64,000 nucleotides of DNA from Chiloscyllium plagiosum (GCF_004010195.1 NC_057754.1:10015562-10079561), one strand, 5' to 3'; positions 575 through 62,630 are shown, counted from the stretch's first letter. Numbers and translations are program-made. Notes: generated by a model from the sequence alone, not told the origin.

Positions 575-3100
575 TGCATCCACCTCCTGCCTATAATGTG
601 ACAACCAGAATTGAGCACAATACTCCAAGTGTGACCTAACCAAAGTCTTATAAAGCTGCAACATGGCAACCTGACTTTTGTTCTCAATTCCCCAAGCAAT
701 AATGGCAGAAATACCATATGCTAATTTTATCATACTATCTACTTGCGAGCCACTTTCAGGGAGCTATGGACTTGAACTCTGTTCATCAGTACTGTGCAAG
801 GTCCTGCCATTAATAGAACATACAACAGTACAGCACAGTATAGGCCCTTCGGCCCTTGATGTTGTGCCAACCTTCTATCCTACTCTAAGATCAAACTAAC
901 CTACATACCCTTCATTTGACTATTATCCATATGCCTATCCAAGAGTCACTTAAATGTCCCTAAATCTGACTCTACTACCACTGCTGGCAGTGCATTCCAC
1001 ACACCCACCACTCCATGTAAACAATCTACCTCTGACATCTCCCCCAAACCTTCCTCCAATAAGCTTAAAATTACGCCCCCTTGTGATTTCCATTTCCCCC
1101 TGGGAAAAAGTCTCAGGCTGTCTACTCTATCTATGTCTCTCATCATCTTGTACACCTCTATCAAGTCACCTCTCATCCTTCTTCATTCTAATAGAGAAGC
1201 CCTAGCTCCCTCAACCTTTCTATGCCCTTCAATCCTGGCAGCATCCTGGTAAATCCTGTGCATCCATTCTAAAGCTTCCACATTACTGTATACTTTTCCT
1301 TAAAATTTGATTGCTCAAAGTGCCGCACCTCACACTTCCCCAGATTAATATTCATCTGCTATTTTCTGCCCATATTTATAACTCATCTGTATCCCTCTGT
1401 GTCCTTTGACAACCTTCTACACTATCCACAACTCCACTGATCTTTGTATGGTCTGCAAATTTACTAACCCATCTATCGACATTTTCATCCAAGTCATATA
1501 ATCCACAAACAGCACAGGTCCCAGTACAGTACAGATCCTTGCAGAACACTAGTCACAGGCCTCCAGCCAGAAAAAAACATCCTTCCACGACTACCCTCTG
1601 CCTTTTAAGGGCAAGCCAATTTTGAATCCACGCAGCCAAATCACCATGCATCTTAATTTTCTGAATAAACCTGCCTTATGGGACTTTGTCGAAAGCCTTA
1701 TTGAAATCCATGTAAGACAACTTCCACTGCTCTACCTTTACTTCCTCAAAAAAATTTAATCAAGTTCGTAAGACATGACCTGCCCTGCACAAAGCTATGC
1801 TGACCATGCCTAATTAGATTAGATTAGATTGGATTCCCTATAGTATGGAAACAGGCCCTTCAGCCTAACAAGTCCGCCCCGACCCTCCGAGTTAGGCTTT
1901 TTTATGCATTTAGATCCTATCCGTAAGAATTCTCTCCAATAGGTTCCCAACCACCGATGTGAGTCTCACAGCTCTGTAGTTGCCTCGATTATGTCTATTT
2001 CTTTTCTTGAACAGAGGAACATTCGCTACTCATCAGTCTTCTCTCCAGTGGCTAATGAGAATACAAAGATCTTGGAGAAAGTGAGGCCTGCAGATGCTGG
2101 ATTTCAGAGCCTGATGAAGGACTTATGCTCGAAACGCCCATTCTCCTGCTCCTTGAATGCTGCCTGACCAGCTGTGCTTTTCCAGCAGCACACTCTTTGA
2201 TACAAAGATCTTGGTCAAGGCCCCAACAATCTCTTGTCTTATCTACTCAAGTTGTTGAAAGAGACCATCGGACCCTGGCAGACATATCCGCCTCAATGTT
2301 CTGCAAGAGACTGAACACCACTTCTTTCTTGATCTCAAAATGCCCTCGCATATTAACATGCTCTGCACTAATCACACTATCCTCCATATCCTTCTGGGTG
2401 AATACCAACACAAAGTGCTCATTTAGGTTCTCATCTATATCTTCTGCCTCCAAACATAAATTCCCTCCTTTATCCTCGAGTGGTCCTACCTTCTCCCTAG
2501 TTATCCTTTTTTTTAAATATATGTATAGAATGCCTTGGGATTCTCTTTAACTCTACTTCCCAAGATGTCCCCTCTTTGCTCTCCAAATTCCCTGCTTGAG
2601 TCCTTTCCTGCTTTCTTTATATTCCTCACAGGCCTTACCTATTTTAACTTCCTAAACCTGACATATGTGCCTTTTTTTCCCTTTTGACTAAATCCACAAT
2701 GTCCCTTATGACCTTGCCATCCTTGTCCTTCCTTCTTGCTGGAACATGCCGGTCCTGAACTCTGATCAGCAGGCCTTTAAACAAATCCCAGACATCAACT
2801 GTGAACTTGCCCAATAATAGCTCCTCCCAATATTGGCATAATTTGCCCTCCCCCAGTTTAGTACCTTCCCTCAATGTACTGACTTATCCTTATTCATAGC
2901 TATCTTAAAACTGAAGGATTGTGATTGCTGTTTCCAAAGTGCTGTCTCACTGAAATGTCAGTCACCTGGCCTGGCTCATTAGCCAATACAAAGTACAGTA
3001 TGGCCCCTTTTCTGCTTGAACTGTCCATGCACTGTTTCAAGAAACCCTCTTAGATGCACTAGCAAATTCTGCCACATCTAAACCTCTTGCTCTAAGGGAG
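575..3100 (-). mobile_element. Decayed CR1 LINE ORF2 mosaic with nested CR1 3' end (~815-1260)
   Basis: Minus ORFs include LQLYKTLVRSHLEYCAQFW, MRGDLIEVYKMMR..VGVWNALP and LNEHFVLVFTQKD, all typical of CR1 RT or linker. Confidence 0.85.
2076..2199. mobile_element. Mini non-autonomous PLE with degenerate hammerhead and 15-bp TSD
   Basis: TSD ATACAAAGATCTTGG at 2061-2075 and 2200-2214. CTGATGAAGGACTTATGCTCGAAAC at 2111-2135. The two halves are in opposite orientation. Confidence 0.75.
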
Positions 3101-4149
3101 CACTATGTCAAGCTCCACCTACCACCATCCCTCTCTCTTCCTCTACACTTGTCATATTATATTTCAGTACTGGATGAGCAGAAAACTCCACCAATTAAAA
3201 ATTGGAATGATCTGAGCTATTCCATTCACTCACCACTTCAAATCTGGTCTCCTGAGCTAGAGCTTTTCCCCTTGTAGAAACTCTTTTAAGCTAAATCATA
3301 CTGTCCACAATACTAATGCCGCTTTTGACCCCAAGCTGATTTTGTAATCACATCATAACTCCACGGTGGCAACAGAGTAGGGCTCCTGAGTTGGAGCTCA
3401 ACCGCTTTTTTTTTTCTTCTTTGCTGGCTTTCTTTTTCCCTCTACTTACCTTCTGGAGGGAGCTTGGGCATGGAGGCAGCGGCTGGGGGCCCAGAACCGA
3501 GACTTTGGCATTTGGTCTTGAGGTGTTTGGTGTACCCGGGCAGAACTCTGTGGTCAGTGGCAATGTGGAAGGGGCTTGCGGTCTGGAGGAGCGCCAGAGG
3601 GGCACTCTGGCAGTCTGCATGAGGTAGTTCATGAGCACGGATAGTGCTCGGCGACAAGATGGCAGTGCCAGAGATCAAGTCTAGTACAGGTTGGAGGATC
3701 GAGCTCTTGTGAGGAACGCCCAGTGTGGAGCAACTGCAGGCTCATGGCTAAAGAAGGACTGCAAATTAGAATTTTTAACTTAATCATACCTGTACACTGA
3801 GAACAGTGTAGTCTTGAATTTTTACCTTATTTCTTTATGTTTCCAACTTTTTACCTAAACTCTTGTACATAAGTACCTTGTACCTATAAAACCTAAGTCT
3901 AATTCTAACTGATACCAGGTACTTCAATTTCCATAAAGTCACCCTTCTCCAGCTTAGTTGCTGCTGAAAGCCTCATCCAAGTCTTTGGACTTGATGGTAA
4001 CCAATACATTCCTGACCAGCCTCTCAACATACACTGCACCTTCACCTGAGATCATCCAAAACGATGCTGCCTGTGCACTTTCCAGGTTGCATTCTCCCAA
4101 ACTCCTGTGCTCACTGATCTACATTGTCTCCTGGTCAATAAGTTATTTA

Positions 4150-5752: not shown

Positions 5753-6174
5753 AGGAAGCAACAGTTTAATGTGAGAAGCTAAACACAACCCTTGACATGT
5801 GAGAATGGTTTTCTGGTCCTTGAGGACAAACAGATGGATGATGCAGAATGAGTGCTGGTCTCTCTGGTGAGTGGCAGTGTCTCCTCTGAATAATTTACAG
5901 GTGTGCGTCTGAATGTAAGTTTTGTGTTAAAGCCAGGTTGAATCGCTTTGAAACACTTTCCAACAGCCTGTCTTTAAACTTTTACGTATTTGGTTAGTCA
6001 TTAAGTCCAATTATATCAGAGTCAGAAATATCTTGTTTCAGGATCTGTGCTGGAGTCACATCTTGGACAAAGAGATCAAGCCTGTCCTGCATCTGACATA
6101 GTAATGTATGGATTTTGTTTCTTCACAACAGTGAGTGAGAGAGAGAGCGAGCGAGAGAGCGTGAGAGAGAGAGA

Positions 6175-6417
6175 GAATTTTCTACAACAATCAATACAGG
6201 TCAGAAGATTTTACGACTTCCAGGGAATTTGAAGTAACGGGGGAAGAGGGGGAGGGAGGAAGAAAGAGTGCGGGTGCGCTGGGGGAGGGAGGGTGAAAGA
6301 GAGTGCGGCATGCCAGACCGGGTTCTTGAGACAGAGAAAGAGAGAGAAAACTAGAAAGAGAGAATGAGACAGAGAGCGAATTTTCTACAACAATCAATAC
6401 AGGTCAGAAGATTTTAC
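6175..6417. repeat. ~160-bp G/purine-rich insert flanked by a perfect 40-bp direct repeat
   Basis: GAATTTTCTACAACAATCAATACAGGTCAGAAGATTTTAC at 6175-6214 and 6378-6417. The insert 6219-6379 recurs at 30448-30608. Confidence 0.85.
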
Positions 6418-6909: not shown

Positions 6910-7878
6910 TCAGTCCTGAATGTGAGTAATAACAGAACCATATCCTTGCAGTCGCTCATGAACTCGTTGGTGTCTCCGCAGTCGGGATGAATCGATGAAT
7001 CTCTTTCCGCACTGAGAGCAGGTGAATGGTTTCTCCCCAGTATGAATTCGCTGGTGGACAATGAGGTAGTCGGACTGCTTGAACCTCTTGCCACAGTCAG
7101 CACAACTGAAAGGCCTCTCCTCGGTGTGACCTTGCTGGTGTCGCAGCAACGTAGCTGAACTAATGAATCCCTTCCCACACACAGAGCAAGTGAATGGCCT
7201 CTCCCCAGTGTGAACTCGCTGGTGTGTCACTAGCTGGGATGGCAGAGTAAATCCCTTCCCACACACTGAGCAGATGGATTGGCTCTCCCCAGTGTGAACC
7301 CGCTGGTGTGTTAGCAAGTGGGATTGCTGAGCGAATCCCTTCCCACACACAGAGCAGGGAAATGGTTTCTCCCCAGTGTGAAGTCGCTGGTGTGTCAGCA
7401 GGTGGCTTGACTGAGTGAATCCCTTCCCACATACAGAGCACGTGAATGGTCTCTCTCCGGTGTGAACTCGCTGGTGCATAACAAGGGTGCCTGAACGAGT
7501 GAACCTCTTTCCACAGTCCGTGCAGCTGAATGGCTTCTCCTCAGTGTGGATTTGCTGGTGTCTCAGTAAGGTGGTTGACTGACTAAATGCCTTCCCACAC
7601 ACAGAGCAGGCAAATGGTCTCTCCCCAGTGTGAACTCGCTGGTGTACAGTGAGTGCGCCTGAGTGCCTGAACCTCTTTCCACAGTAAGTGCAGCTGAAAG
7701 GCCTCTCCTCAGCATGCACTCGCTGGTGTGTCAGCAGGTTGGATGAATCAGTGAATCCCTTCCCACACACGGAGCAGGTGAACGGCCTCTCCCCAGTATG
7801 ACTGCGGCGATGTGTTTCCAGCTTTGATGGGGAAATGAATCCCTTTCCACAGTCGGCACATTTCCAAGGTTTCTCCAT
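6910..7878 (-). CDS. C2H2 zinc-finger protein ZNF-A, 322 aa, 11 tandem fingers, no effector domain
   Basis: Open ORF MEKPWKCADC... with 11 CxxC-x12-HxxxH units and TGERPF linkers. Candidate acceptor ccttttccag (minus) with the exon starting at 8177. Confidence 0.93.
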   Translation of the reverse strand: MEKPWKCADCGKGFISPSKLETHRRSHTGERPFTCSVCGKGFTDSSNLLTHQRVHAEERPFSCTYCGKRFRHSGALTVHQRVHTGERPFACSVCGKAFSQSTTLLRHQQIHTEEKPFSCTDCGKRFTRSGTLVMHQRVHTGERPFTCSVCGKGFTQSSHLLTHQRLHTGEKPFPCSVCGKGFAQQSHLLTHQRVHTGESQSICSVCGKGFTLPSQLVTHQRVHTGERPFTCSVCGKGFISSATLLRHQQGHTEERPFSCADCGKRFKQSDYLIVHQRIHTGEKPFTCSQCGKRFIDSSRLRRHQRVHERLQGYGSVITHIQD

Positions 7879-8892
7879 GCTATGGGTGTCCTGGTGTCTC
7901 TCCAGGTTGGATGATCAGTTGAAAGCTTGTCCACACACCAGTTTCTCAGCTACAAATCCAGTGATTTCGCTTTCAGGCTGCGTAACTGGTAAATGCTTTT
8001 CCTGCAATAAGTTCACTGGAACATTCTCACTCTGATCTGTGTTTTTCCAGTCACAATGATGTTAGAAATCTTTTCCCGCTGACAGATCAGATGTTGAACG
8101 GTAACGAGTATGTCCTGCTGACTCACTCAGACCTCAGATTCAAGTCTCCCATCATCTAATCCTCTTTCTTTAATACACTGGAAAAGGAGTCAGCATAAAG
8201 TCAGCAGTGAGTATAGGTTAGAAATTTAGAACAGAAATTTCAGTTTCTGTGGATTATTTTTTCTTTCTTGTTTCCCAAAGCTGTAAATCCCTATCCCAAT
8301 CGCTTCTCTCCTTCTGCTGAAATCCAAATAGTTTTGGGTTATTCTTTCTGAACTTTTTAACAAAATAATGTGCATCTACAGACAGCAATATGTTTGGAAA
8401 TTAACTTCAGTCAGTTATCATCACAAAACATTAATCTGATTCTCCTGAACTGACCATACAGAATAGCAGATGTTAGCCTCATAGTCGTATCTGACTGTGT
8501 GGAGAATTGTTTAAGGCACAAAAATAGGTCATTTAACCCATTTTGTCACTCTCTGAATGAGCATTCTGACATTGTGCTATTCTCCTGATTTTTCTCTATA
8601 ATCTTACATGTTGTTCCTATTCAAAAAAATGATCTAATGTCCTCGATTGAACCTGCCTAAATCTCAGTTCCATGCAATGTATTCCAGATCTAATCATAAG
8701 CTGTGCGAAGTTTCTAACACACAATTCGCTCGTTTGTACATTTGAAATCTGCGCTCTTGTTTGCGATGCTTTTATTAATGGGAACAGTTTCTCACTACCT
8801 AGCCATATCCTGCATGATTTTGAAAATTCCATTTAACCTCCTCTTAACTTTCTCTAACCTAACTTCATGACTGAAGTTGCTCACCACTTAAA

Positions 8893-10364: not shown

Positions 10365-11102
10365 TGATGCAGAGATGCTGGTGTTGGACAAAAATCACAC
10401 CACACCGGGTTGTACTGCAACAAGCTTATTTGAAACTGTAAGCTTTTGGAGCCCCGCTCCTTCCTAAGGCAGCTAGTCTTCCCACCCATCCCCAGCTCGC
10501 TTTCCAGTCCCATGTCCTCCCTTCTATTTCACCTGCCGACCCTTCCTTCCAGCTAGGATTGCAGATGCTGGAGATTAGAGTGGTGCTGGAAAAGCACAGC
10601 AGGTCAGGTAGCATTCGAGGAACAGGAAAATCGTCTTTTCGGGCAAAAGCCCTTCATTAGGAATGAGGGCAGGGAGCCTCCGGGGTGGAGAGATAAATGG
10701 GAGGTGGGTGGGGCTAGGGAGAAGTAGCCAAGAGTACAATAGGTGGATGGAGGTGATAGGTCAAAGAGGCGGGTGGAATAGAGGACTGAGAAGGAAGATT
10801 GGCAGGTAGGCCAGGTCATGAGGATGGTGCTGAACTGGAAGGTTGGAACTGGAGTAAGGGGGAATGTGGAAACTGGTGAAGTCCACATTGATGCCCTGGG
10901 GTTGAAGTGTTCCGAGGCGGAAGATGAGGCATCAGGTGGTGAGGGAGTGGTAGTGGAGGCGGCCCTGGACCTGCATGTCCTCTGCAGAGGGGAGGTGAAA
11001 TGTTGGGCCACGGGGTGGTGGGGTTGATTAGTTCGGGTGTCCTGGAGATGGTCCTTAAAGCGCTCTGCGAGAAGGCGTCCAGTCTCCCCCCTGTAGAGGA
11101 GA
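10365..11102 (-). mobile_element. PLE 3' fragments with GIY-YIG tail and degenerate hammerheads
   Basis: Minus strand LIFRLGTLQPQGINVDF-like tail at ~10880-10930. Degenerate hammerhead CTAATGAAGGGCTTTTGCCCGAAA at 10637-10660. Confidence 0.7.
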
Positions 11103-14100
11103 CAAGTTACAAATCACACACCAGCAGGTTATAGTCCAACAGGTTTAACTGGAAGCACTAGCTTTCGGAGCGCCGCTCCTTCATCAAATGATTGTGGAGG
11201 ATACAATTGTAAGACACAGAATTTATAGCAAAAGTTTACAGTGTGATGTAACTGAAATTATAAACTAAAAAATACCTTGATTGTTTAAGTCTCTCATCTG
11301 TGAGATGACAGACTTAATTCTAACAGATGAGAGATTGAAAAATACCTTGATTGTTTGTTAAATGTATAATTTCCAATTAAATCTGTTGGACTATAACCTG
11401 GTGATGTGTGATTTTTAACTTTAAAGATATGAGATTAACGTCTGTCTGTATCCCAATCTTGACTCAGACTGGTTCTATTTCTGAAGTAGAATTTACAAGA
11501 TATTACATGGATTGACTGCCTGTCGATATGTATTTTTTAAGCAAAATACAAATGTGTATGCGAATATAATTCTGCAAATATAAATTCATCCCCTAAACGT
11601 ATATGTGCTTGTGCATGTGAGAGAGAGTGTGTTTGTGTGTGTACAAGCTTGGCAAAGTATGTGTGAGTGTGTTATGGGAGAATAAGCCTGTGAGAGGGTG
11701 CATGCATTAGTGCGAGTGTGGAGAGTGTAAATGTGTGCATGTGGGAGGGGGTCTGCACGAATGTGAGAGTATGAAAGTGTGTGTGTGTGTTTCTGTCTGT
11801 GGGAGAGAGTGTATAATGAACTGGGGTCACATATAATGTGAGCGGTTGAGACCATCCTAATGGGTACCAAACCTGGCTAAGCGCATCTGCTCGACTACTT
11901 TGCGTTGTTGCCTGTCCCGATGTCTGCCTTGGAGGATGGTCACCTGAAGGTCTGAGGCTAAACGTCCCTGATCACTTAAGTGTCCCCCAACTGAGAGGGA
12001 ACACCAGTGTTTGGGAACTATTGTGCAATGTCCACTCAACTGATGTCGTAGTATCTTCTTGGTCTCATCCATACACCATACCTCGGGGCATCCTTGCCTG
12101 CAACGTACGAGATAGACAACATTGGCCAAGTCACATGAATACCTGCCGTGTAATGGTGGCATCTGTGTCCACACTGACACATCTTGCAGTGGTTGCCATG
12201 ATAGTGTTGTGGTTGAAGGCTGGGCAGTTTGCTGTGAACAATGATTTGTTTAAGGTTTGGTGATTTTTTTTAAAAGGTGAGAAGTGGAGTCGTAGGGAAG
12301 GTCTTGGTGAGGTGTTCATTCTCACGTGTTGCAGGCTGTGAATGAGACTTCAGGAATTCTTTCAAGATGTCAACAGTAATCCCAATGAGGCAACTGACAA
12401 ACTAGAACAGTCATCACAGAGATCTGCACAGGCGTGACCAAAGGAGGAGTCAATTTGGACCCCACCGCAGGGCCGCTGCCCTGGGCTTGACATGTATGCT
12501 CAAACATAGTCAGCAAATGTGTAAATGCCAGGTTCATCAGCTGCACCCACAAGCAGAGCAATACTTCAGCCAATCACATCGCAATGCCATCCATGCTGTT
12601 AAAACCAAATTACAACATTGTCATCAAATCAGCAGATAAAGGAGAAGCCATTGTCATTCAGAATAGAACAGCCTACTGCAAGGAAATGTACCGACAACTG
12701 AACAACCGGGAACAGTACAGCAACTACTGGCCAATCCGACCAATGAACACACCCATGAACTAAACACACTGATGAAGACTTCTGATCCAGTCCGACAGGA
12801 TTCCCTGCGTGCTTTCATCCCATGTACTTCTCATGTAGGGGACTTCTACTGCATTCCGAAGATGCACAAAGCCAACACACCAGGACATCCCATAACAGGA
12901 AACGGGACCATGTGTGAGGACTTCTCTGGCTATGTCGAAGGCATCTTGAAAACCCATTGTACAAGGGACCCCCAGCTTCTGTCGCGACACTACAGATTTC
13001 TTATAGAAACTCAGTACCCACGGACCAGTCGAACCCAGAACATTCCTCATCACAATGGATGTTTCAGCACTCTACACCAGCATCAGGACAACATCCTCAG
13101 TACTCAATACCAACAACTGCCAATCTCTAAGCACTGTCCTACAACTCATCCGCTTCATCCTTGGCCACAATGTTTTCACCTTTGACAACCAATAGAACAT
13201 AGAACAGTACAGCACAGAACAGGCCTTCAGCCCACGATGTACTTCATCCAGACACAAGGAACAGCCATGGGATCAAATTTGCACCCCAATGTCAACATTT
13301 TCATGCACAGGTTCGAACAAGACTTCTTTTCTGCACAGGACTTCCAATCAACACTATACATCAGCTAATTGACAACATTTTCTTCCTCTGAACCCATGGC
13401 AAGGAGTCACTGAAACAACTACACAGTGATATCGAGTTTCATCCCACTATCAGACTTACCACGGACAACTCTTTAGTATCTGTCTCATTCTTGGACACAT
13501 GCATCTCCATCAAGGATGGGCACCTGACTTAACCACAAACCCATGAATAATGTCACGATGCTACACTTCTCCAGCTTCCACATATCAAAACAGCCATCCC
13601 CTACAGACAAGCCTTATGCATACAGAGGATCTGTTCAAATGAGGAGAAACGTGACGGACGCCTGAAAGTGTTCAAGATGCCCTCATAAGAACAATGTACG
13701 ATTCTCAAGGCAGACATCGGGACAGGCAACAACGCAAAGTGACCGAGCAGAGGCTGATAGCCAGGTTCAGTACCCATTGGGATGGCCTCAACCGGTCACA
13801 TTACAAGTGACCCCAGTTCATTATACACTCACAGACAGAAACACACACACACACTTTCATACTCTCACACTCATGCAGACCCCCTCTCACATGCACATAT
13901 TTACACTCCCCATACTCACACTAATGAATGCACCCTCATCAATCACCAGTTCGAACATGCCAGAGTGAGAAACCATAATGAACTCCTCAGGAGCTGGGCA
14001 CAGGTTGCAACCGATAGGGTATCCTTTGTTGTCCAGTACATCCCGGGAGCCGAAAAACTGTACCATCTTCGCAGCCTGCAACACATTATCAATAAGGACG

Positions 14101-15067
14101 AACAACTTGCTAAGATCTTCCCTACACCTCCACTTCGCGCCTTTAAACAACCACCAAACTTTAAACAGATCATTTTTTGCAGCAAACTGCCCAGCCTTCA
14201 GGACAACATCGACCACAACATTGGACAGCCCCATCACAGCAACCACTGCAAGACATGCCAGATGGTCGATGCAGATACCACCATTACATGGGAGGACACC
14301 ATCCACCATGTACGAAGCAGGTACTCATGTGACTCAGCCAACATTGTCTACCACATATGATGCAGGCAAGGATGCCCCAAGGCATGGGACATTGGCGAGA
14401 CCAAGCAGACAACGTACAACAATCACTAGACAATGGTGTTACCTCCGAGTCGAGGAACACTTCAGTGGTCAGGGACATTCGGTCTAAAACCTTCAGGTGA
14501 GCATCCTCCAAGGCAGACTTCAGGACAGACAACTACGTAAAGTGATCAAGCAGAAGCTGATAGCCAAGTTCAGTACACTGAGGATGGCCTCAACTGGACC
14601 TTGGCAACAAGCATGTCACACTACAGGTGACCCCACTGCATTGTGTACGTACACACACACACGCACAGACCTTCTCTCATACACACACATATACATGCCC
14701 CACATTCACATCCACGCATGCACCCTCTCACAGGATTATACCCCATCATACACACACTTTACCAAACTTGCACATACTCTCTCACATGCACTCACACGTG
14801 CACACACAAATGCACACTCACTGTCTCTTTGTCCTACGTGCATGCGCACACACATTAAAGTTCATATTTGCAACATTATATTTGCATATACATTCTATTT
14901 TGCTCAAAAAATACTTAACCTACAGGCAGTCAATCCATGTAAGATCTTGTAAATTCCACTTTAGATATAGAACCACTCTGACTCAGGATTGGGACACAGA
15001 CTTTCACCTCACCCCTTTAATGCACTAACAAACCCATTCTAAAAGATGAAAGACTTAATCTAGTTCA

Positions 15068-15525
15068 AAGTTTGTGAGAAGATTTATAGCTCGGGTGCTC
15101 GTTGTTGTGGTTCTGTTCGCTGAGCTGGGAATTTGTGTTGCAGATGTTTCGTCCCCTGTTTTGGTGACATCCTCAGTGCTTGGGAGCCTCCTGTGAAGCG
15201 CTTCTGTGATCTTTCCTCTGGCATTTGTAGTGGTTTGAATCTGTCGCTTCCGGTTGTCAGTTCCAGCTGTCCTTTGCAGTGGTTGGTATATTGGGTCCAG
15301 GTCGATGTGCTTGTTGATTGAATCTGTGGATGAGTGCCATGCCTCTAGGAATTCCCTGGCTGTTCTCTGTTTGGCTTGTCCTATAATTCAAACCACTACA
15401 AATGCCGGAGGAAAGATCACAGAAGCGCTTCACAGAAGGCTCCCAAGCACTGAGGATGTCACCTAGACAGGGGACGAAACGTCTGCAACACAAATTCCCA
15501 GCTCGGCAAACAGAACCACGACAAC
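15068..15525. mobile_element. Second-family PLE end nested in the large PLE: inverted pLTRs around a GIY-YIG tail
   Basis: 15101-15240 and 15386-15525 are inverted copies. Between them the minus strand reads IGQAKQRTAREFLEAWHSSTDSINKHIDLDPIY. Confidence 0.85.
15447..15486 (+). ncRNA. Minimal type-I hammerhead ribozyme motif, intact core
   Basis: GCA-CTGAGGA-T-GTCaCCT/agac/AGGgGAC-GAAAC-GTC-TGC. Helix I GCA/TGC, palindromic ACGT helix III, GUC cleavage triplet. Confidence 0.8.
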
Positions 15526-16089
15526 TTAATTTGTCTTGTTCAACATATAATTTCAGCTGCATTACACTGTTCTTTTGCTATAAATTCTGTGTCTTAAGAT
15601 CCTGCTTCACAACCACCCAATGAAGAAGCAGCGCTTCGAAAGCTAGTGTCTCTAAATAAATTTGTTGGACTATAACCTGGTGTTGTGTGGTTTTTAACCC
15701 TAAAAGTTGACATCCCCACTTCCTGATGTTGCTGTGTCTGATCAGGATATGGACCAGTTAGGTGAAAGGTTCGGTCTGTCCTCAAGGCACAGTGGGGAAA
15801 GACCACAACCTAAGGTCATTATGCTGAAGTTAAATTCGATTATCAGACCATCTGCTGTCTCAAATATATGTCAATATAATCTTGTCCAACTAAATGCTCA
15901 GTTGCAAAGGTTCATTTGCTGGATATAGTCACGTTCCAATTTTTTTTATCCATGTGCTACTGTACAGAACCAAACTGCTTTAGTGACTATGTATGTATAC
16001 AACGATATTTTTTATGAAGGCGGCCAATTTTTAGTGTGTATGATGGGGTTGCCAACTATAGGGCTTTATAAGCATTAGAAACAATACTC

Positions 16090-16720: not shown

Positions 16721-17689
16721 TGGAGATACTTCAGAGGAATTTACTAGATTGATTCCAGGGATGAGGGGTTTATCTTATAAAGAGAGTTTGAGCAATATAG
16801 GCCAATTCACTCTGGCATTTAGAAGAATGCGAAAGTGGATTGATGAAAGATTGACAGGTTTAGGGATGGAATATCAGAGTGGCAATGCCAGTATTGACTC
16901 CTTACAATCAGAGGATCTAAGGAGTTCACAATGAAAGGAAGACTAGTATCTCAGGGCAAGTAAGTAGAGACAATTGAGGTAGAGAGTAACACAGCCAAAT
17001 GTTCAAATATCACAGAGAGGGTGTGACTGGATATTACAAAGGGGTAAAAACAGAATTTCTTTTTCTGCAGAAACACAGAAGGTTTGGCAATATCTGTGGA
17101 GAGAAAGCAGAATCAACATTATGGCTTCTTCAAGATAGGAAGGGAGGAACATGGGCAAGACATCAGCTATCTCAAACAGTGACCAACTGGAAATGAGAGA
17201 TGGGGAGGGGCATGGCCAGATGTGAAATTATCACAGAGAGCGAGGGATTGGAGGTTAGGTGATCAGGAGGGATGAAGCCAAGGAGGGATTTGTCAACCAG
17301 GATGCAAATTTTCAAATTTGGACATGGTTCGGTCAGGAGACAATTTAGTCAGTGACGGCAGAGGTGAGGTTGAATAGGTTTTGGTACACAACGAGCAGAC
17401 TTTGAATAACCTCACATTTCTGGGTCAGGATGGATTGAGTATGAACTGGAATCAAATCTCAAGGTAATATAAAGCCCTTGAAAGATGAGCTATGATGGAC
17501 TGCCAACAGATGCTGTCATGTAGCTAGAAAGTTCCGGTGTTCGGTATGGTGTGGGAATGTGGCCAAGAACACATCTGCAATGACAGTGAGAGGTGTTCAA
17601 AAAGGAATGGAGGTGAGTATAGGCACAATGTGTTTCCTTTAGGGCAAAATGTTGTAGCACAAGCCCAGAGAACCTTGGATGTCTATGAA

Positions 17690-19610
17690 CGTTCAGGACT
17701 GGATAAAAAGAAAAATAGAGTACAAAAAATACAAAGGGTGCAAATCAACAGAGGTCATAGTACTGGGCTGTGAGTGCATTGAGGAGACAAACAGAGGGAA
17801 TGAGAACACTTGCAGGCAGGATTTGGAAGAATCCTAAGCTGTTCTGCAAATATCTCAAGAGGAAGATAATATCCATGGAAACAGTAGGGCCCATTAGCGA
17901 CCACAGGGTAAATCTGTGTATAGCCGCAGAGGACATCAGTGGTGTTAAATGAATACTTCACAACTGTTTTCACTCAGATACATGCAGGCACAGAATTTGA
18001 AAGGTTTGGCGATGAAGTTCTTGAGCAGATTGATATAGGGGAGTGAAGCGGTTGTGAAGGTTTTAGCAGATTTAAAAGTGAACAAATCCCCAGGTTCAGA
18101 CGAATTGTATTCCAGGCTGCTGTGGAAGACGAGGGAAGAAATCACAGGGGCTCTGGCTGCAGAGGGATGCCAGAGAACAGGAGGACAGATAATCTGATTC
18201 CCACCCTTCTTGAAAAGTTAAGATAAACCCCAGGAAAGTACAGACCAGTGAATCTCACATCATTTGTAGGGAAACTGTTGGATAAAATTCTGAAGGAGAG
18301 AATTTATCTTCAGTTAAAGAAGCAAGGTTGGATCAGAAAGAGCCAACATGGCTTTGTCAGAAGGTGGTCATGACTAACAAATCTGGTCAAATGTTTAGAA
18401 GAGATGCACAAGTGTATTGATGAAATTGATGTAGTTTGCATGGATTTCAACAAACCCTTTTTACAAGTTTCCATGTGGGAGACTGATAAAAAAAATTGGC
18501 AGCATGGCGGAAGACAGAAGGCTGTTAGTGTGACTACAGTCCAGTGTGCAATGGTATGCCATAGGAATCAGTATTGAGTTTGTTATTGTTCGTGATATAC
18601 GTCAACGATATGGATAATAATGTCGGGAGGATGACACAAAGATTTTGAGAAAGTCTTTGACAGTGAGGAAGAAGGTTTTGGGTTACAGGATTGGTCTGAT
18701 GGATAGATTAATGGCAGATGGCATTTAATCCAGATACATGTGGGGTGATGCACCTTGTAAGTAACATGACAATGGAGTACTCAACAAATGGCAGAACAAT
18801 AAGAAGCTCAGAGGTACAGAAGGATCTTGGGTGCTTGTCCATAAATTCCTGAAGATGGCAGCACAGATGAATAGGGTTGTTAAGGTCACTTGTGTTTACT
18901 AGTTGAGGCATAAGAGTAGGGAGGTTATGTTGGAGCTGCACAGAACTTTGGTTAGGACACAGCTGGCATACCTTGTGCAGTCTGGTGACCACACTATGGG
19001 AAGAATTGCACTGAAAAGGGTGCGGAGGAGATTCACCAAAATATTACTCAGGATGTAGCGTTCAGTTATGAAGAGAGGCTGGATAAGTTCAGGTTGTTTT
19101 CTTTGGAGCAGTGAAGGTTGAGGGGGAACCTCATTAAGGTTTACAAGAACGAAGGGAATACACACAGCAAACAGAAAGCAGCTGTCCCTTTCATCTAAAG
19201 GTCATTGATAAAGAGGGCATCATTTTAAGATGAAAGGCAGAACATTTAGATGAGATTTGAGGAAAATGTTTTCACCAAGAGCGTCGTAGGGACCTGGAAT
19301 ACACTGCTTCACAGGGTAGTTGAAGTGAGGTAAATCTCATGACCTTTCAAGTATTTGGATGAGCACTTGAAATGCCAAGTCTGTGGGCCCAGTGCCTAAA
19401 AGAAGGACTAGTAATAGATTAGTTGAGCTTTGGTAGTACAGGGAGAAAGTGAGGACTGCAGATGCTAGAGACCAGAGTTGAAAAATGTGGTGCTAGAAAA
19501 ACACAGCAGGCCAGGCAGCATCTGAGGAGCAGGAGAATCGACGTTTCGGGCATAAGCCCTTCTTCAGTACAGACTCAATAGTTTTTCTGCACTGTATGAT
19601 TCTCATCATG
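17690..19610 (+). mobile_element. Decayed CR1 LINE ORF2
   Basis: LAGRIWKNPKLFCKY, LNEYFTTVFT, DLKVNKSPGSDELYSRLL and YRPVNLTS motifs, running on to the CR1 3' end. Confidence 0.85.
19442..19567 (-). mobile_element. Mini PLE with intact hammerhead core and 7-bp TSD
   Basis: Minus strand CTGAAGA-A-GGGC/ttat/GCCC-GAAAC-GTC at 19567-19540. TSD AGTACAG at 19435-19441 and 19566-19572. Confidence 0.8.
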
Positions 19611-20663: not shown

Positions 20664-20974
20664 CCTATCTGGGCAAACATGACACTATTGTTAAAGTTCA
20701 CTTTAGAATGTAACTTTTTAAAAAAGTTTTGCAATTTACATATGAGAGAACTGAAACCAACATGGTCATTCGAAACGATGAGAGACTTCACAAACAATCC
20801 AGGTCTTTTTCAATATATAATTTCAGTTACATCACACTGTAATTTTTTGCTATAAATTCTGTGTCTTACAATCTTATTCTCCACAACCACCTGATGAAGG
20901 AGCAGCACTCCGAAAGCTAGTGCTTCCAAATAAACCTGTTGGACTATAACCTGGTGTGGTGTGATTTTTAACCC
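20664..20974 (+). mobile_element. PLE pLTR-derived insertion with intact hammerhead
   Basis: Homologous to the large PLE 3' end (15030-15700). TSD TGCATTGA at 20656-20663 and 20975-20982. Confidence 0.8.
20888..20922 (+). ncRNA. Minimal type-I hammerhead ribozyme motif
   Basis: CAC-CTGATGA-A-GGAG/cagca/CTCC-GAAA-GCTA-GTG. Helix I CAC/GTG, palindromic AGCT helix III, CUA triplet. Confidence 0.75.
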
Positions 20975-33482: not shown

Positions 33483-34483
33483 GCAAAAGTGAGAGAAAAG
33501 CAAATTACTTCAGATGCTGGAATCTGAAACCAAAAGAGAAAATGCTGGAAAATCTCAGCAGGTCTGGCAGCATCTGTAAGGAGAGAAAAGAGCTGACGTT
33601 TCGAGTCTAACTGACCCTTTGTCAAAAGCTCGAAACGTCAGCTCTTTTCTCTCCTTACAGATCTGAAAAATGTGTTGCTGGAAAAGCGCAGCAGGTCAGG
33701 CAGCATCCAAGGAGCAGGAGAATCAATGTTTCGGGCATAAGCCCTTCTTCAGGAATCTGACCTCAGGACCTGAAGAAGGGCTTATGCCAGAAACGTCAAT
33801 TCTCCTGCTCCTTGGATGCTGCTTGACCTGCTGCGCTTTTCCAGCAACACATTTTTCAGCTCTGATCTCNNNNNNNNNNNNNNNNNNNNNNNNNNNNNNN
33901 NNNNNNNNNNNNNNNNNNNNNNNNNNNNNNNNNNNNNNNNNNNNNNNNNNNCATCCAAGGAGCAGGAGAATCAATGTTTCGGGCATAAGCCCTTCTTCAG
34001 GAATCTGACCTCAGGAGAGGTCAAATTTTCCAGCATTTTCTCTTTTGGAGGCAAAAGTGAGGACTGCAGATGCTGGAAATCAGAGTCTAGATTAGAGTGG
34101 TGCTGGAAAAGCACGGCAGGTCATGCAGCCTGACCTGCTGTGCTTTTCCAGCGCCACTCTAATCTAGACTCTGATGGTCAGGCGAGGCAAGCCTGAAATG
34201 GAGCAGTGGAGTGTGCTGCGTGTAAATGCTGTTCTCTTGCAAAAAGGAGTTTCTGGACTCCATCCCTGTCAGCCCAGGACTATCTCTGAGTGTGTGTGTG
34301 TGTGTACTGGACCCTGGAATGGCCTACATTCCCCTGGAGCAGAGAGCGGCTTGGGACACAGGGAAGGGCCTGTGCCCGAAACGTCGAATCTCCTGTTCCC
34401 TGGATGCTGCCTGACCTGCTGTGCTGTTCCAGCAATAAAGTTTCAACTTTGATCTCCAGCATCTGCAGACCTCACTTTCTCCT
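33483..34483. mobile_element. Cluster of palindromic mini-PLEs with hammerhead-like motifs, spanning an assembly gap
   Basis: Inverted arms 33572-33605/33629-33662, ~33663-33753/33769-33859 and 34080-34123/34131-34174. Another copy at 34365-34483. Confidence 0.8.
33870..33951. other. Assembly gap (82 N)
   Basis: Run of N. 33952-34016 duplicates 33704-33768. Confidence 0.99.
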
Positions 34484-34489
34484 GGGACA

Positions 34490-36990: not shown

Positions 36991-36994
36991 CATC

Positions 36995-39573: not shown

Positions 39574-39838
39574 GTTCAAAGTTTGTGAGAAGATTTTAGC
39601 TCGGGTGCTCGTTGTTGTGGTTCTGTTCGCCGAGCTGGGATTTTGTGTTGCAGACGTTTTGTCCCCTGTCTAGGTGATATCCTCAGTGCTTGGGAGCCTC
39701 CTATGAAGCTTCACAAACGTCTGCAACACAAATTCCCAGCTCGGCTGATGAAGCTTTTGTCCGAAAGGTCGATTTTCCTACTCCTCGGATGCTGCTTGAC
39801 CTGCTGTGCTTTTCCAGCACCACTCTAATCTAGACTTT
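39574..39838. mobile_element. Composite PLE pLTR fragments (two families) with degenerate hammerheads
   Basis: 39574-39710 matches 15063-15200. A short inverted piece at 39715-39744 is followed by a mini-PLE arm CTGATGAAGCTTTTGTCCGAAAGGTC. Confidence 0.75.
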
Positions 39839-39974
39839 GGCATGTAGGTGATGGTTTTCCTGTGCACCAGCTGCTCTTGCCTTCCTGGCCAGTGTGGGTT
39901 CTGTCAAATAGCAAGTTGAGTTTCACTGGAAGTCCATTACCTTTTCCCACTCCTCCACTAGAATCGTACAATTC

Positions 39975-45021: not shown

Positions 45022-45199
45022 CCATGATGTGGGGATGCTGGTGATGGACTGGGGTGAACAAAGTCAGACATCACACAATGCTAGGTTATAGTCCAATAGG
45101 TTTATTTGAAGTCGGGTGAAGGAGCAGCACTCTGAAAGTTTGTGATTTCGATTAAACCTGTTAGACTATAACCTGGTGTCATGTGACTTCTGACTTTTT
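45022..45199. mobile_element. Palindromic mini-PLE with 10-bp TSD
   Basis: TSD CCAAATGTAG at 45012-45021 and 45200-45209. Arms ~45061-45110/45146-45197 surround a degenerate hammerhead. Confidence 0.78.
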
Positions 45200-45597
45200 C
45201 CAAATGTAGACTTACCTGCAAGTAGCTGCTCCCAGTCAATTTTTATCAGATCCTGTCTAATGCTGTTGAAAATTGGCCTTCCCCTGTTTTAGATATTTAA
45301 CTTCTGCACTACCCTTATCCCTTTCCAAAATGACTTTGAAACTTACAGAGTTATGTTTACTATCCCAAAATACTCACCCGCTGACACTTCAACCACTTGA
45401 CCGGCTTCATCCCTAGGATTAGGTCTGGCACTGTCCCATCTAACCCAGAGAAGGCGCTTTAAAAATTCCACCCCGTCAATCATAGAGTCAGAAGAATTGT
45501 ACAGCATGGAAACAAACCCTTTGGTCCAACCTGTCCATGCCAATCAGATATCCTAAATTAATCTAGTCCTATTTGCCAGCATTTGGCCCATATCCCT

Positions 45598-56954: not shown

Positions 56955-58810
56955 TCAGAGTCATAGAGATCCACAGCAGAGACAAAGACCCTTCTTCCTA
57001 ATGCATCCATGCCAATCAAAACAATGACCTAACTACTCTAATCTCATCTTCCAGCACATGGCCCTTTGCATATTCCTTGCCATGACAAGTGCACGTCCAA
57101 ATACTTTTTAAAAAGAGTCATAGAGATGTACAGGACGGAAGCAGACTCTTCAGTCCAACTCGTCCATGCCAACCAGATATCTCAACCTAATCTGGTCCCA
57201 TTTGCCAGCACCTGGCCCATATCCCTCTAAATCCTTCCTATTCATATACCCATCCAGATGCCTCTTAAATGTTGCAATTGTACCAGCCTCCACCACGTCC
57301 TCTGGCAGCTCATTCCATAGACACACCACCAGCTGTGTGAAAAAGTTGCCCCTTAGGTCCCTTTTATATTTTTCCCTTCTCGCCCTAAATCTATGTCCTC
57401 TAGTTCTGGACTCCCCCACCCCAAGGAAAAGACCTTGTCTATTTGTCCTATCCATGCCCCTCATGTTTTTATAAACCTCTATAATTTTATGAAGATTTCT
57501 GCCTCTACCACCCTTACACACAGTGAATTCCAGATTCACACCATCCTCTGTGCGAAAAATCTTTCCTAACATCTCTTTCAAAACTTCTGCCCTCTAGTTG
57601 ACATCATTGCCCCCTCATCATTGATCCCTTCATCAAGGGGAAATGTTTCTTCCTGCCTAATTTGCCAATACCTCTCATAATTGTCTACATCTCAGTCATG
57701 TGCCCTCTCAATCTCCTCTGTTCCAAGGAAAATACCTCCAAGTTTTTCCAACCTCTATTCATAACTGAAACTCTCCAGTCCAAGCAACTTCCTGGAAAAT
57801 CTCCTCTGCACCCTGTGCGGTTCTATCACACCCCTCCTACATTGTGGATTCCATAATGCCACACAATACTTCAGCTGCGGCCTAATTACAGTTCCAAAAT
57901 AACCTCCCTTCTCCTAATCTCAATGATGAGGAGCTGCTGTTAATCTGGAGTGGACAAAGTTAAGACTCACACAACACCAGATTATAGTCCAACAGGTTTA
58001 TTTGGAAGTACTAGCTTTCAGAGTGCTGTCCCTTCGTTAGGTAGCTGGTACTTACAAATAAACCTTTGGACTATAACCCGGTGTTCATAGAGTCATAGAG
58101 ATGTACAGCACGGAAACAGACCCTTCGGTCCAACCCGTCCATGCCGACCAGATGTCCCAACCCAATCTAGTCCCACCTACCAGCACCCGGCCCTCTTTCC
58201 CCATACTTATGCCCTTGAGTTCTGGACTCCCCGACTCCAGGGAAAAGACTTTGCCTATTAACCCTATCCATGCCCCTCATAATTTTGTGAACCTCTATAA
58301 AGTCACCCCTCAGCCTCCGACGCTCTAGGGAAAACAGCCCCAACCTGTTCAGTCTCTCCCTATAGCTCAAATCCTCCAACCCTGGCAAATTCCTGATTTT
58401 TAACTTAATCTCAATGCTTCAGCCAGTAAGGGCAAGCATACCAATGCCATCTTTATTACTTCATTCACCTGTCCTGATACCATAAGAGGCCAGTGTATGT
58501 GCACACCAAGGTCCCTCTGATCCTGGTGCTTCCTTTACTGCTCATCCTTTACTTCCTTAGTCCTGCTCAAGTGCATCAGCTCACATTTATCCTGATTGAA
58601 TTCCATTTGCCACTGACCAGCCTGGGCTGTATCCTCCTATAATTTAAGGCTATCCACTATTTACCACCTACTGATTTTTGTATCATCTGCAAACTTACTG
58701 ATCAAACCTACCTACATTCAAGTCTAAATAATTTATTCAAACCACAAATAGTAAGCGTCACAATTTGGGCAAGTGTGGGACCCTACTGGATACAAGCTTC
58801 CAGTCAGGAT
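56955..58810 (-). mobile_element. Nested CR1 3' fragments (young copies at 57115-57485 and 58086-58388)
   Basis: GESRTRGHRF..RDLRGNFFTQ..WNELPE motifs and (TCATAGAG)n tails. Confidence 0.85.
57926..58405. mobile_element. Palindromic mini-PLE (11-bp TSD) later split by a CR1 insertion
   Basis: TSD TAATCTCAATG at 57915-57925 and 58406-58416. Arms ~57958-58010 and 58048-58085 plus 58392-58405. Confidence 0.75.
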
Positions 58811-60703: not shown

Positions 60704-60739
60704 GCTCCTGTATCCATAACATCAGCAAAGGAATACAAT

Positions 60740-62630
60740 AAACAAAAGCAAAAGATGAAGTACAAAAGGAAACTAGCAGAAAGCCTAAGCATTAATACCA
60801 AAGTCTTCAGCAAGTATATATAAAAGCAAAGAAAATAGTGAAATCAAATGTCGACCCAAAAATGGCAAGTAACAATGGGGAAACTCAGCACAGTGGCACT
60901 CTTAACAATATTCTGTCTCTGTTTTCACAGTGGAAGATAATAACTTCTTCCCAAAAACTGCAGTCACTACAGAGGAACTTGTGAAATTACTATAACAAGG
61001 GACAAGGTATTAAGTAAACTGATGGGATTAAAGACAGGTAAGTCCTGGGCCCTGATGGCCTGCACTCCAGGGTATTAAAGGAGATAATGGATGCATTAGT
61101 TATGACATTCCAAAATTCCCTCGATTCTGGAAAAGTACCAGTGGCTTGGAAACATGCTAATGCGATACACTTATTCAGAAAAGGAGAAAGCCAAAAAGTG
61201 GGAAGTGACAAACCAATTAGTTTGACCTCAGTCGTGGGAAGTCACTGGAGTCAATCATAAAGTAGGAGTTGACTGAACACTTGGAAAAACAAAGCTCAAT
61301 TCATGGGTGTCAGCACGGTTTCATGAAGGGCACATCATGCTTGACAAATTTGCTAGAGTTATTCGAGTTGTAACCAGCAAAGTGAATAACAGCGATGTGA
61401 TATATCTGAACTTCCAGAAGGCATTTGACAAGAGGCCACATCAAAGACTGATCCAGAAGGTCAGATCTCAGGGTTGTTAAGGTAGAGCATTAGCTTGGAT
61501 AGAGGATTGGCCGATCGACAGAAAGCAGAGGTTCGAGATAAACGGGTCCTCCTCTGGATGGTGAGCTGTTAGTAGTGGGGTGCCGTAATGCTCAGTTCTT
61601 GAACCTCAACTATTTACAATCTATATAAATGATCTGCAAACTGGGAAAGAATGTAACGTAGGACAATTCAAAGACACTACGACAATAGGTGGGAAAGTCG
61701 GTTGTGATGAGGAGATAGAGTTTACAATGGATATCGCTAGGTTTGGAGAATGGGCCTGAATCTGGCAGTTTGAGTTGAATGTGGATAATTGCGAGGTTGT
61801 CCATTTTGGCCAGAAACATAAAACAGCAAATTGAAATGAGAAGCAGATTCAAAGTGTGTCAGTGCAGAGGGATCTGGATGTCTTTGTGCATGAATAAAGG
61901 TGCAGCATATAAGGAAGGCAAATAGAGTTTTGGCATTTATTACAAAAGGACTGGATTATTAAAGCAAACACATTTTGCTACAATTGTATAAGGCATTGGA
62001 GTAGTGTCCAGTTTTGTTCTCCTTACTTCAGGAAGAGTGTGGTGGCACCAAAGGCAGTTCAGAGGAGGTTTGCAAGATTGATTTCCGAAAATGAAAGGCT
62101 GTCCTCTGAGGAACAGTTGAATAGCTTGGGATTGTACCCACGGGAGTTGAGAAGAATGAGGGGAGATTTGATTGAGATATATAGAATCCTAAAGAGGTGT
62201 GATAAGGTGGAAATTGAACACAGGCTCCCCCTTGTGGGACAGTCTCAAACAAAGTTAAAAATCACACAACACCAGGTTATAGTCCAACAGGTTTAGTTGG
62301 AAGCACACTAGCTTTCGGAGCAACACTTCCAATTAAACCTGTTGGACTATAACCTGGTGTTGTGTAATTTTTATCTTTGTACACCCCAGTCCAACACCCG
62401 CATCTCCAAATCAGTCTCAAACAAGACATTATAGATTTCCAGTGAGAGGAGGTAGGTTCAAAACTGAGATGAGGGTTATAAATCTGTGAAATTCACTGCC
62501 ACAGAGTGGAAGCAGAATCAAACTACAGGTTCAAGAAAGAGATAGAGACGTTTGTGATGAAAAGCAGGATAAAGAGCTTTGGGGAGCAGGTCAGGGGAGT
62601 GTTGAGACCAGGCTAAGATCAACCATGATG
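60740..62630 (+). mobile_element. Decayed CR1 ORF2
   Basis: KSWALMA/GPDGLHSRVLKE region, YLNFQKAFDK, AVQRRFARLI..RMRGDLIEIYRILK. Confidence 0.85.
62253..62411. mobile_element. Palindromic mini-PLE with 13-bp TSD
   Basis: TSD CAGTCTCAAACAA at 62240-62252 and 62412-62424. ~50-bp inverted arms at 62251-62303/62326-62378. Confidence 0.85.

What the first reader, a model, noticed from the sequence alone, without database searches (positions are those of the whole stretch)
2061..62424. Tiny TSD-flanked, mostly self-inverted hammerhead mini-elements: a candidate non-autonomous PLE (retrozyme-like) system
Seen: 120-310-bp non-coding insertions with 7-15-bp TSDs at 2076-2199, 19442-19567, 20664-20974, 45022-45199, 57926-58405 and 62253-62411. 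Most consist of a pLTR end joined to its own reverse complement, and each has a different fold-back point close to the ribozyme. They share termini with the RT-encoding PLE at 11.1-15.7 kb or with the GIY-YIG tail at 10.6-11.1 kb. Inference: these are ribozyme-processed RNAs mobilised in trans by PLE RT/GIY-YIG. The copy-specific inversion points suggest fold-back or template switching during each insertion rather than a fixed MITE-like structure.
Basis: partly seen in the sequence, partly recalled or inferred. Interest (0 to 1): 0.7.

Follow-up and report, generated by a model that had tools for sequence, protein, structure and literature searches.

The report
Stub insertions of shark Penelope retrotransposons
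These are real but mostly ordinary stubs, the last 120-310 bases of Penelope-type jumping genes in a shark-like genome, four of six with a reversed second piece; many stop just ahead of the hammerhead motif, which likely marks where the copied RNA begins and not where the ribozyme cuts.

Summary
All six insertions and their 7-15-bp target-site duplications are real. Only 3 of 6 are self-complementary; one is a non-overlapping inversion and two are plain truncated copies. They are ends of Penelope-like elements (PLEs) in the published 'inverted copy plus one-sided tail' layout, and the same layout occurs here with arms up to kilobases long.

They are not retrozymes: none has tandem ribozymes, 1 of 6 has an intact core, and most arms run through the cut site. 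They are not MITEs: no fixed junction appears in genome-wide contigs.

Two details go beyond the papers I found:
(1) Arm geometry excludes fold-back on the first cDNA in 3 of 4 inverted copies and fits priming from both target strands.
(2) Many arms end just upstream of the hammerhead (9 of 22 in the window; a step in laid contigs and reads). That point lies 32 nt after a TATA box (family B) or at an initiator-like site (family A). RNA is polyadenylated at +27/+30. The stubs are likely run-off, 'strong-stop'-like cDNAs.

Empty sites were not tested. The scan noted the same pattern before on other pieces of this genome.

The parts
2061..2075 (.). TSD, left copy (15 bp; right copy 2200-2214)
2076..2109 (-). 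family A: the whole 34-nt tail, inverted; it ends where the body arm's 3' end lies in the RNA (non-overlapping, single-template twin-priming geometry)
2110..2199 (+). family A body arm, from -29 (start of hammerhead core) to RT start site 1 (~+62)
19442..19565 (-). family A plain 5'-truncated copy with tail, 5' end at -26/-28, not inverted; 7-bp TSD 19435-19441 / 19566-19572
20664..20974 (+). family B plain copy, -256 to site 1 (+55), no tail, not inverted; TATA box at 20851-20857 (-69), intact minimal hammerhead 20888-20922, AATAAA at +10; 8-bp TSD 20656-20663 / 20975-20982
45022..45112 (-). family B left arm with tail, 5' end at about +3/+4
45115..45199 (+). family B right arm without tail, 5' end at -25; 10-bp TSD 45012-45021 / 45200-45209
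57926..58047 (-). family B left arm with tail, 5' end at -36
58048..58405 (+). family B right arm, 5' end at -5..+1, interrupted by a LINE fragment at 58086-58394; 11-bp TSD 57915-57925 / 58406-58416
62253..62323 (-). family B left arm without tail, 5' end at about -12
62326..62411 (+). family B right arm with ~35-nt tail, 5' end at +4; 13-bp TSD 62240-62252 / 62412-62424
10555..11103 (-). family A long 5'-truncated copy (GIY-YIG-like C-terminus, hammerhead, part of tail); initiator-like motif with its A at 10664 (-32); no TSD found
11104..15701 (.). decayed family B composite: minus-strand part 11104-12374 (with a small inversion at 11355-11422), head-to-head with a plus-strand RT + GIY-YIG part 12500-15701; no TSD found; arms only 67-79% alike
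33495..34047 (.). family D inverted insertion flanked by a 14-bp direct repeat (read from the sequence), itself holding a family A inverted pair 33664-33869 (arm 5' ends -32 and -29; assembly gap follows)
34054..34174 (.). family A inverted pair (tail on left arm; 5' ends +27 and +19); ~17-bp TSD with one mismatch, left copy displaced to about 33471-33487 by the D insertion
39574..39839 (.). family C inverted pair joined at C +24 to a family A arm starting at -28 (chimeric insertion)

Best explanation
The six stubs are 5'-incomplete insertions of the terminal repeat (pLTR) end of two Penelope-like element families, likely made when the element's RT/GIY-YIG protein nicked both target strands 7-15 bp apart and primed cDNA from one or both nicks at its two RNA start sites (site 1 and the end of the ~35-nt tail). 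One priming would give a plain copy (19442, 20664). Two would give head-to-head arms with the tail on one arm only: abutting if the second RT stops at the first (2076), overlapping if it displaces the first cDNA or uses a sister RNA (45022, 57926, 62253). The stubs are short because many cDNAs likely ran off a nearby RNA 5' end: mainly a predicted transcription start 3-8 nt upstream of the hammerhead core (B about -37, A -32), and for some B arms possibly the ribozyme cut (+1). Shown: TSDs, arm coordinates, one-sided tail, clustered 5' ends, TATA/initiator/AATAAA motifs, poly(A) at +27/+30. Taken from literature: two-strand nicking and extension, two internal RT starts. Inferred: double priming in vivo, the transcription start, run-off.
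For: Layout matches the published PLE structure: inverted pLTR, 8-10-bp TSD, ~31-bp tail on one arm (PMC3846280; PMC8557442). Short single or opposite-strand hammerhead copies were already called truncated PLEs (PMC4209133). De novo PLE insertions in Chlamydomonas have a median of 128 bp (PMC9977147). A vertebrate PLE protein cleaves and extends both strands, starts RT at two sites bounding the tail, and does not need ribozyme cleavage (PMC11167929). In the window the same layout runs from 34-nt arms to arms reaching coding sequence (15060-15523; 11104-15701). 9 of 22 A+B arms end at -37..-22; P(any 16-nt window holds >=9) is 0.036 to 5e-5 for geometric nulls of mean 60 to 250 nt., family A: depth falls 4.0-4.8-fold between -26 and -35 in 4 of 4 runs, and -32 recurs as a joint (7 and 5 contigs)., family B: the top listed 5'-side loose end in DNA (495 and 496 contigs) follows B for nine more letters, to -37, then turns unrelated (agreement 0.4), while the RNA loose end there runs on in B. 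TATAAAT sits at -69, -69 and -67 in 3 of 3 long B copies (window frequency 0.0004 per position); an initiator-like motif has its A at -32 in the one long A copy (background 0.011). 1259 of 5348 laid RNA reads carry poly(T) loose ends at B +27/+30, 12-15 nt after AATAAA.
Against: No 5'-end RNA data: the start site is predicted from motifs only, and one search listed no pile-up of molecule starts or ends. The depth step may partly reflect subfamilies whose upstream sequence differs from my diverged reference; no family A loose end at -28..-35 was among the top six shown per run. For B the RNA depth falls only about 2-fold across the core. Family A has no TATA box. Family C arms (-245, -98, -57) do not cluster. 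The 16-nt window was chosen after seeing the data, paired arms are not independent, and the end of the 10390 arm is approximate. In D. virilis the start lies about 120 nt upstream of the hammerhead with an intron between (PMC2377424; PMC4209133), so the geometry is not general. In 45022 the two arms are only 76% alike, no closer than to other copies, which does not help a same-template origin (33664: 94%, 62253: 94%, 34054: 95%). Empty sites are untested.
Confidence: 0.6

Rival explanations
1. Same truncated-PLE origin, but the pile-up at -22..-37 is an RT pause or drop-off caused by the hammerhead fold (or by a splice boundary at helix I), not an RNA 5' end.
For: Ends scatter over 15 nt and do not fall on one base. 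In D. virilis the intron ends at the 5' end of helix I (PMC4209133). Family A lacks a TATA box.
Against: An RT moving 3'->5' on the RNA would meet the hairpin at about -8, not after leaving it (inference). There is no AG acceptor before A -32 or B -37 in the long copies. The B boundary at -37 sits 32 nt after a TATA box conserved in 3 of 3 long copies.
Confidence: 0.18
2. A dedicated non-autonomous, SINE-like unit (about -32 to +98 in family A) with an internal promoter is transcribed from short copies and moved in trans by PLE proteins.
For: About four-fifths of family A depth is lost between -26 and -35. D. virilis Penelope has an internal promoter (PMC2377424). Non-autonomous PLEs exist in Chlamydomonas (PMC8557442). 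A-subfamily variants 19442, 33664 and 34364 occur here only as short copies.
Against: Short copies share their ends with coding copies. B stubs lack the upstream TATA box, so they would not be re-transcribed from it. No amplified short unit with its own fixed junction appeared among the 15 joints shown (145 not shown).
Confidence: 0.12
3. Retrozyme-like system: hammerhead self-cleavage releases small linear or circular RNAs that PLE proteins reinsert.
For: 4 of 12 B arms start at -5..+5, and 57926's right arm can start exactly at +1. Animal retrozymes derive from pLTRs (bioRxiv 10.64898/2026.07.22.740005).
Against: Retrozymes are defined by tandem same-strand units each with a ribozyme; 0 of 6 elements have that. 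Only 1 of 6 has an intact core. 6 of 10 arms cross the cut site. Ribozyme cleavage was dispensable in vitro (PMC11167929).
Confidence: 0.05
4. Inversions arise by fold-back (self-priming) of the nascent cDNA or RNA, as the first reader and PMC3846280 proposed.
For: 57926 and 15060 fit (the tail arm reaches further 5'). Short palindromes lie at some junctions (57926, 39709).
Against: In 45022 and 62253 the tail-less arm reaches further 5' (-25, -12) than the tail arm (+4), and neither arm contains the other. In 2076 the arms do not overlap at all. Copying one's own cDNA cannot give these.
Confidence: 0.04
5. A MITE of a DNA transposon with terminal inverted repeats.
For: Three copies are near-perfect hairpins.
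Against: TSDs vary from 7 to 15 bp with unrelated sequences, ends are asymmetric, junctions differ, and the best B inversion joint is in only 7 of 71,611 and 5 of 84,145 laid contigs.
Confidence: 0.01

Closest known systems
Canonical endonuclease-positive Penelope-like element insertions with inverted pLTR and one-sided tail (Adineta Pen2a, D. virilis Penelope; PMC3846280, PMC8557442, PMC2377424)
   Same: Head-to-head inverted 5'-truncated copies, 30-40-bp tail on one end only, variable TSD, minimal hammerhead in the pLTR, RT + GIY-YIG long copies nearby.
   Different: Here both arms can be under 100 bp with no ORF; 5' ends pile up at the hammerhead's upstream edge; family B has TATA, AATAAA and a used poly(A) site bracketing the hammerhead.
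Poseidon of Anolis (PAc) in vitro (PMC11167929)
   Same: Two RT start sites bounding the tail; both target strands cut and extended; cleavage not required.
   Different: Different family (B has a CxxC between RT thumb and GIY-YIG, Neptune-like by the criterion in PMC3846280; no tree built). In the parts I read, that paper does not derive inverted stubs or a 5' pile-up.
Non-LTR (animal) retrozymes (PMC7229834; bioRxiv 10.64898/2026.07.22.740005)
   Same: Type I hammerhead, pLTR-derived, non-coding, long TSDs.
   Different: No tandem units, minimal and mostly broken ribozymes, inverted and not head-to-tail, ends set by RT start sites.
L1 twin priming and retroviral minus-strand strong-stop DNA (both recalled, no call)
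   Same: Works like twin priming (second target strand primes a second cDNA, giving an inverted 5' part; 2076 has that geometry) and like strong-stop DNA (internal priming downstream of the start, run-off at the cap).
   Different: No poly(A) priming and no tRNA primer; two defined internal start sites; arms can overlap.

Membership tests
EN+ Penelope-like element insertion | Ends shared with RT + GIY-YIG coding copies | tested here: met
   P0003 (RVT_1) maps by tblastn to 12500-14577 and 11830-12374. For family A only a GIY-YIG-like reading was seen by eye; Pfam hit 0 of 8 window ORFs.
EN+ Penelope-like element insertion | Variable-length TSD | tested here: met
   7-15 bp in 6 of 6
EN+ Penelope-like element insertion | 30-40-bp tail on one end only | tested here: met
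   4 of 4 named inverted copies
EN+ Penelope-like element insertion | Minimal type I hammerhead in the pLTR | tested here: met
   motif scan and alignments; Rfam reported no hammerhead; activity not testable
EN+ Penelope-like element insertion | Empty orthologous site with one TSD copy | not tested
Neptune clade | Cys-rich segment between RT and EN; RT phylogeny | tested here: inconclusive
   CxxC seen in family B; no tree built
Non-LTR retrozyme | Two or more tandem same-strand units, each with a complete hammerhead | tested here: not met
   0 of 6
Non-LTR retrozyme | Unit ends at the ribozyme cut | tested here: not met
   6 of 10 arms cross the cut; main cluster at -37..-22; minor cluster at -5..+5
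Non-LTR retrozyme | Small linear or circular RNAs | not testable with these tools
   only a poly(A) single-cell library had raw reads
MITE (DNA transposon) | Fixed TIRs, constant short TSD, amplified fixed structure | tested here: not met
Non-autonomous PLE family | Own clade of short copies amplifying from a short master | tested here: inconclusive
   too few copies; no amplified junction among the joints shown

The most novel reading that the evidence does not exclude
Shark PLE pLTRs work like a compact U3-R-U5: start at about -37 (TATA at -69), hammerhead inside R, poly(A) at +27/+30, RT starts at +55 and +90. RT primed on the 5' pLTR runs off at the cap as a strong-stop-like cDNA. It then either jumps to another RNA (making long, tandem or chimeric copies) or is sealed in place, leaving a very large population of stubs. 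The inverted-plus-tail structure is then the footprint of a dimer priming both target strands. This would explain pLTR regeneration, for which PMC2377424 saw no obvious mechanism.
Probability: 0.3. Interest if true: 0.72.

Novelty: new member of a known kind. Interest (0 to 1): 0.4.

Why it matters
As objects, the stubs are a known product of PLE insertion. Their value is as a natural record of how PLEs insert. Arm geometry argues against the published self-priming idea and ties the 2024 in vitro result (two strands, two start sites) to genomic structure. The coincidence of 5' ends with a predicted promoter, and the poly(A) site inside the pLTR, give a cheap test (5'RACE/CAGE, copy census) of how pLTRs and inverted repeats form, which is still open. 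Side effect: inverted family B stubs carry an AATAAA/ATTAAA-type signal on one or both strands, and family B ends are used as poly(A) sites in RNA, so they may end host transcripts.

Tried and rejected
Whole genome: none held, so no copy census and no empty-site test.

Rfam: 9 matches, all below gathering score; 8 are miRNA or CRE models on the hairpins at 33.6 and 34.1 kb, rejected as chance; no hammerhead family hit.

Pfam: 0 of 8 window ORFs hit, because the frames are decayed.

Collection scans: the family B pattern gave 0 in metagenome and 0 in viral contigs. The family A pattern gave 4 + 3 matches limited to the pattern itself, in unrelated, apparently bacterial DNA; all 7 dropped.

Run search: no RNA holder listed; this is no evidence on expression. 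No RNA joint appeared among the 15 joints shown (145 hidden), but the library is poly(A)-selected and about 2% was read, so it says nothing on circles.

Monomer folding of six hammerhead regions did not give the ribozyme fold, as expected for dimer-type minimal motifs; uninformative.

Supplement text of PMC11167929 had no hits. Its Fig. S1/S2, which I could not see, may already show a 5' pile-up. Supplements of the bioRxiv preprint were not looked at.

Literature searches for a twin-priming or strong-stop reading of PLE stubs, or for these shark families, found none in the listings; subscription papers are not covered.

Look-ups of earlier findings by place, by sequence and by a second word set gave nothing.

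Considered and rejected: MITE, retrozyme membership, fold-back as the general cause, and 11.1-15.7 kb as the active donor.
Full report
Conventions and host. Positions are given relative to the predicted hammerhead cut (+1 = first base after the NUH triplet; the core starts at -28 in family A and -29 in family B). The cut site is placed by the standard hammerhead numbering (recalled) and was not measured. The host looks like a shark: the named protein relatives of the window's PLE frame come from Scyliorhinus, Heptranchias, Chiloscyllium and Hemiscyllium. No genome is held.

1. Observation. All six TSDs are exact: 15, 7, 8, 10, 11 and 13 bp. With 3 bp of slop, 13 of 1482 random pairs reach 7 bp; with 12 bp of slop, 26 of 397 do. 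So the two shortest are probable, not certain. Two elements belong to family A (2076, 19442) and four to family B (20664, 45022, 57926, 62253). Their ends match the longer PLE pieces at 10555-11103 and 11104-15701. Only three are palindromes (fold z -8.6, -5.8, -15.5; the others +0.6, -0.5, -0.3). 2076 is an inversion with non-overlapping arms; 19442 and 20664 are plain. 57926 is 480 bp because a LINE piece sits in its right arm. Only 20664 keeps an intact minimal hammerhead. A wider search finds more PLE ends of at least six families, among them 34364-34482 (12-bp TSD) and 15060-15523 (7-bp TSD).

2. What they are. In all four named inverted copies one arm ends at an internal site (A about +62, B +55) and the other carries a further ~35 nt. 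This is the published PLE layout. An inverted, shorter pLTR, an 8-10-bp TSD and a 31-bp tail on one arm are described in PMC3846280 (parts 1-4 of 5 read). Inverted 5'-truncated copies with a tail at one end are described in PMC8557442 (passages) and PMC2377424 (abstract and three sections). Single and opposite-strand hammerheads 100-700 bp apart were already read as truncated PLEs (PMC4209133, parts 1-2 of 4), and new PLE insertions in Chlamydomonas have a median of 128 bp (PMC9977147, passages). In the window the layout is a continuum: the family C insertion at 15060 has arms ending at -245 (coding) and -98, and the '11.1-15.7 kb PLE' is a head-to-head pair joined at about 12374/12500. That element has many stops and frameshifts, no TSD and arms only 67-79% alike, so it is a relic and perhaps more than one event.

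3. How the inversion forms. PMC11167929 (parts 1-2 of 4 read) shows a vertebrate PLE protein that cleaves and extends both target strands, starts at two RNA sites bounding the tail, and does not need ribozyme cleavage. Fold-back on a first cDNA requires one arm to lie within the other. That fails for 45022 (tail arm +4, tail-less arm -25), 62253 (+4 and -12) and 2076 (tail arm is the tail only, abutting the body arm's 3' end); it holds for 57926. Two primings on RNA, one per target strand, explain all four (inference). Arms within a copy are 94-95% alike in 33664, 34054 and 62253, 89% in 57926, but only 76% in 45022, so a single template per event is plausible but not shown. Laying contigs on 10520-11345 gave 160 joints, 15 shown. 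The best B inversion joint (+12 / -28, bounded by mismatches of my reference) is in 7 of 71,611 and 5 of 84,145 laid contigs at depths of 110 and 35, against millions for the repeat itself. No amplified fixed junction is seen, which rejects a MITE. Contigs drop rare forms, and in X12 some joints were not counted.

4. Why they are short. Of 22 A+B arms in the window, 9 end at -37..-22 and 4 (all B) at -5..+5. The chance of 9 in any 16-nt window is 0.036 to 5e-5, depending on the assumed mean length (window chosen after the fact). Family A depth falls between -26 and -35 by 4.6, 4.2 and 4.0-fold in three contig sets and from 451 to 94 in raw RNA reads; -32 recurs as a joint in 7 and 5 contigs (coordinates). 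For B, 495 and 496 contigs have a loose end at -28, forced by two private mismatches of the reference. Their consensus follows family B for nine more letters, to -37, and then becomes unrelated (agreement 0.4), whereas the RNA loose end at that place continues in B. A TATA box lies at -69, -69 and -67 in 3 of 3 long B copies, which predicts a start near -39..-37 (spacing recalled). The one long A copy has an initiator-type motif (consensus recalled) with its A at -32 but no TATA. In RNA, 726 + 533 of 5348 laid reads have poly(T) loose ends at B +30 and +27, 12-15 nt after AATAAA, with no genomic A-run there in the window's copies; how many loci give these reads is unknown. Together this reads as start (-37), hammerhead, poly(A) (+27/+30), RT starts (+55/+90), so that cDNA primed on a 5' pLTR runs off at the RNA's start.

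Against this reading: no 5'-end data; no start or end pile-up listed; subfamily divergence upstream could cause part of the step; B RNA depth falls only about 2-fold; family C does not cluster; D. virilis starts further upstream with an intron between.

5. Comparison. It works like L1 twin priming plus strong-stop run-off (both recalled). It is a member of the endonuclease-positive PLE insertions on all features tested except the empty site, which is untested. It is not a non-LTR retrozyme: these need tandem units each with a ribozyme (bioRxiv 10.64898/2026.07.22.740005, parts 1-3 of 5; PMC7229834, passages), and 0 of 6 have them. 6 of the 10 arms of the named elements cross the cut site. The small B cluster at the cut leaves room for occasional cleaved templates. 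A short non-autonomous family A unit is not excluded.

6. Novelty. The architecture is known. Searches did not list a paper deriving the stubs from double priming or from run-off at a start site, but subscription papers and the supplementary figures of PMC11167929 were not seen. Three earlier AI notes on other pieces of this genome report the same stubs, one also the pile-up upstream of the hammerhead. I had recorded that pile-up before seeing them; they are unchecked and not counted as support. Verdict: new member of a known kind, interest 0.4; the U3-R-U5 / strong-stop reading has probability about 0.3 and would deserve about 0.7.

Noticed in passing
window 33471-34494: At least four PLE insertions of two families are nested or adjacent within 1 kb (D at the end of A, A inside D, another A), next to a GC-rich stretch with a YY1-like motif (recalled) near 34530. 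The 82-N gap at 33870-33951 is followed by a duplicated stretch (33952-34016 = 33704-33768, 100%), probably an assembly artefact of the hairpin.
   Followed up: partly
window 10555-11104, 15060, 39745; joints 10572/11104, 10572/11125, 10664/11125: Different PLE families repeatedly adjoin or nest in each other's ends. A-B joints recur in 4-9 contigs per run, suggesting template jumps between families or targeting of pLTRs.
   Followed up: partly
window 11129-11132 (family B +27/+30): 1259 of 5348 laid RNA reads are polyadenylated inside the family B pLTR; B ends may serve as poly(A) sites of host or PLE transcripts.
   Followed up: partly
window 1-576: A further PLE family (F): coding sequence inverted at about 375 (121-173 vs 375-427, 98%), then a hammerhead at 465-498 and a terminal part related to family C.
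   Followed up: no
window 6910-7914, 22322-23542, 40456-41451: Three C2H2 zinc-finger exons (open frames of 334, 406 and 331 aa): the window is a zinc-finger gene cluster.
   Followed up: no
window 35716-36330, 26030-26132, 17059-17128, 35247-35310, 10365-10472: Older or more diverged PLE ends (family E with a GIY-YIG-like part; D-like and B-like remnants) found by nhmmer.
   Followed up: no
window 6127-6417 and 30448-30644: A 161-bp stretch is 99% identical between 6219-6379 and 30448-30608, beside low-complexity repeats; a young repeat or duplication.
   Followed up: no
window 13706-13937: A plus-strand copy of the GIY-YIG end (88% to 11694-11931, inverted) interrupts the RT-thumb region of the large family B relic.
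   Followed up: no
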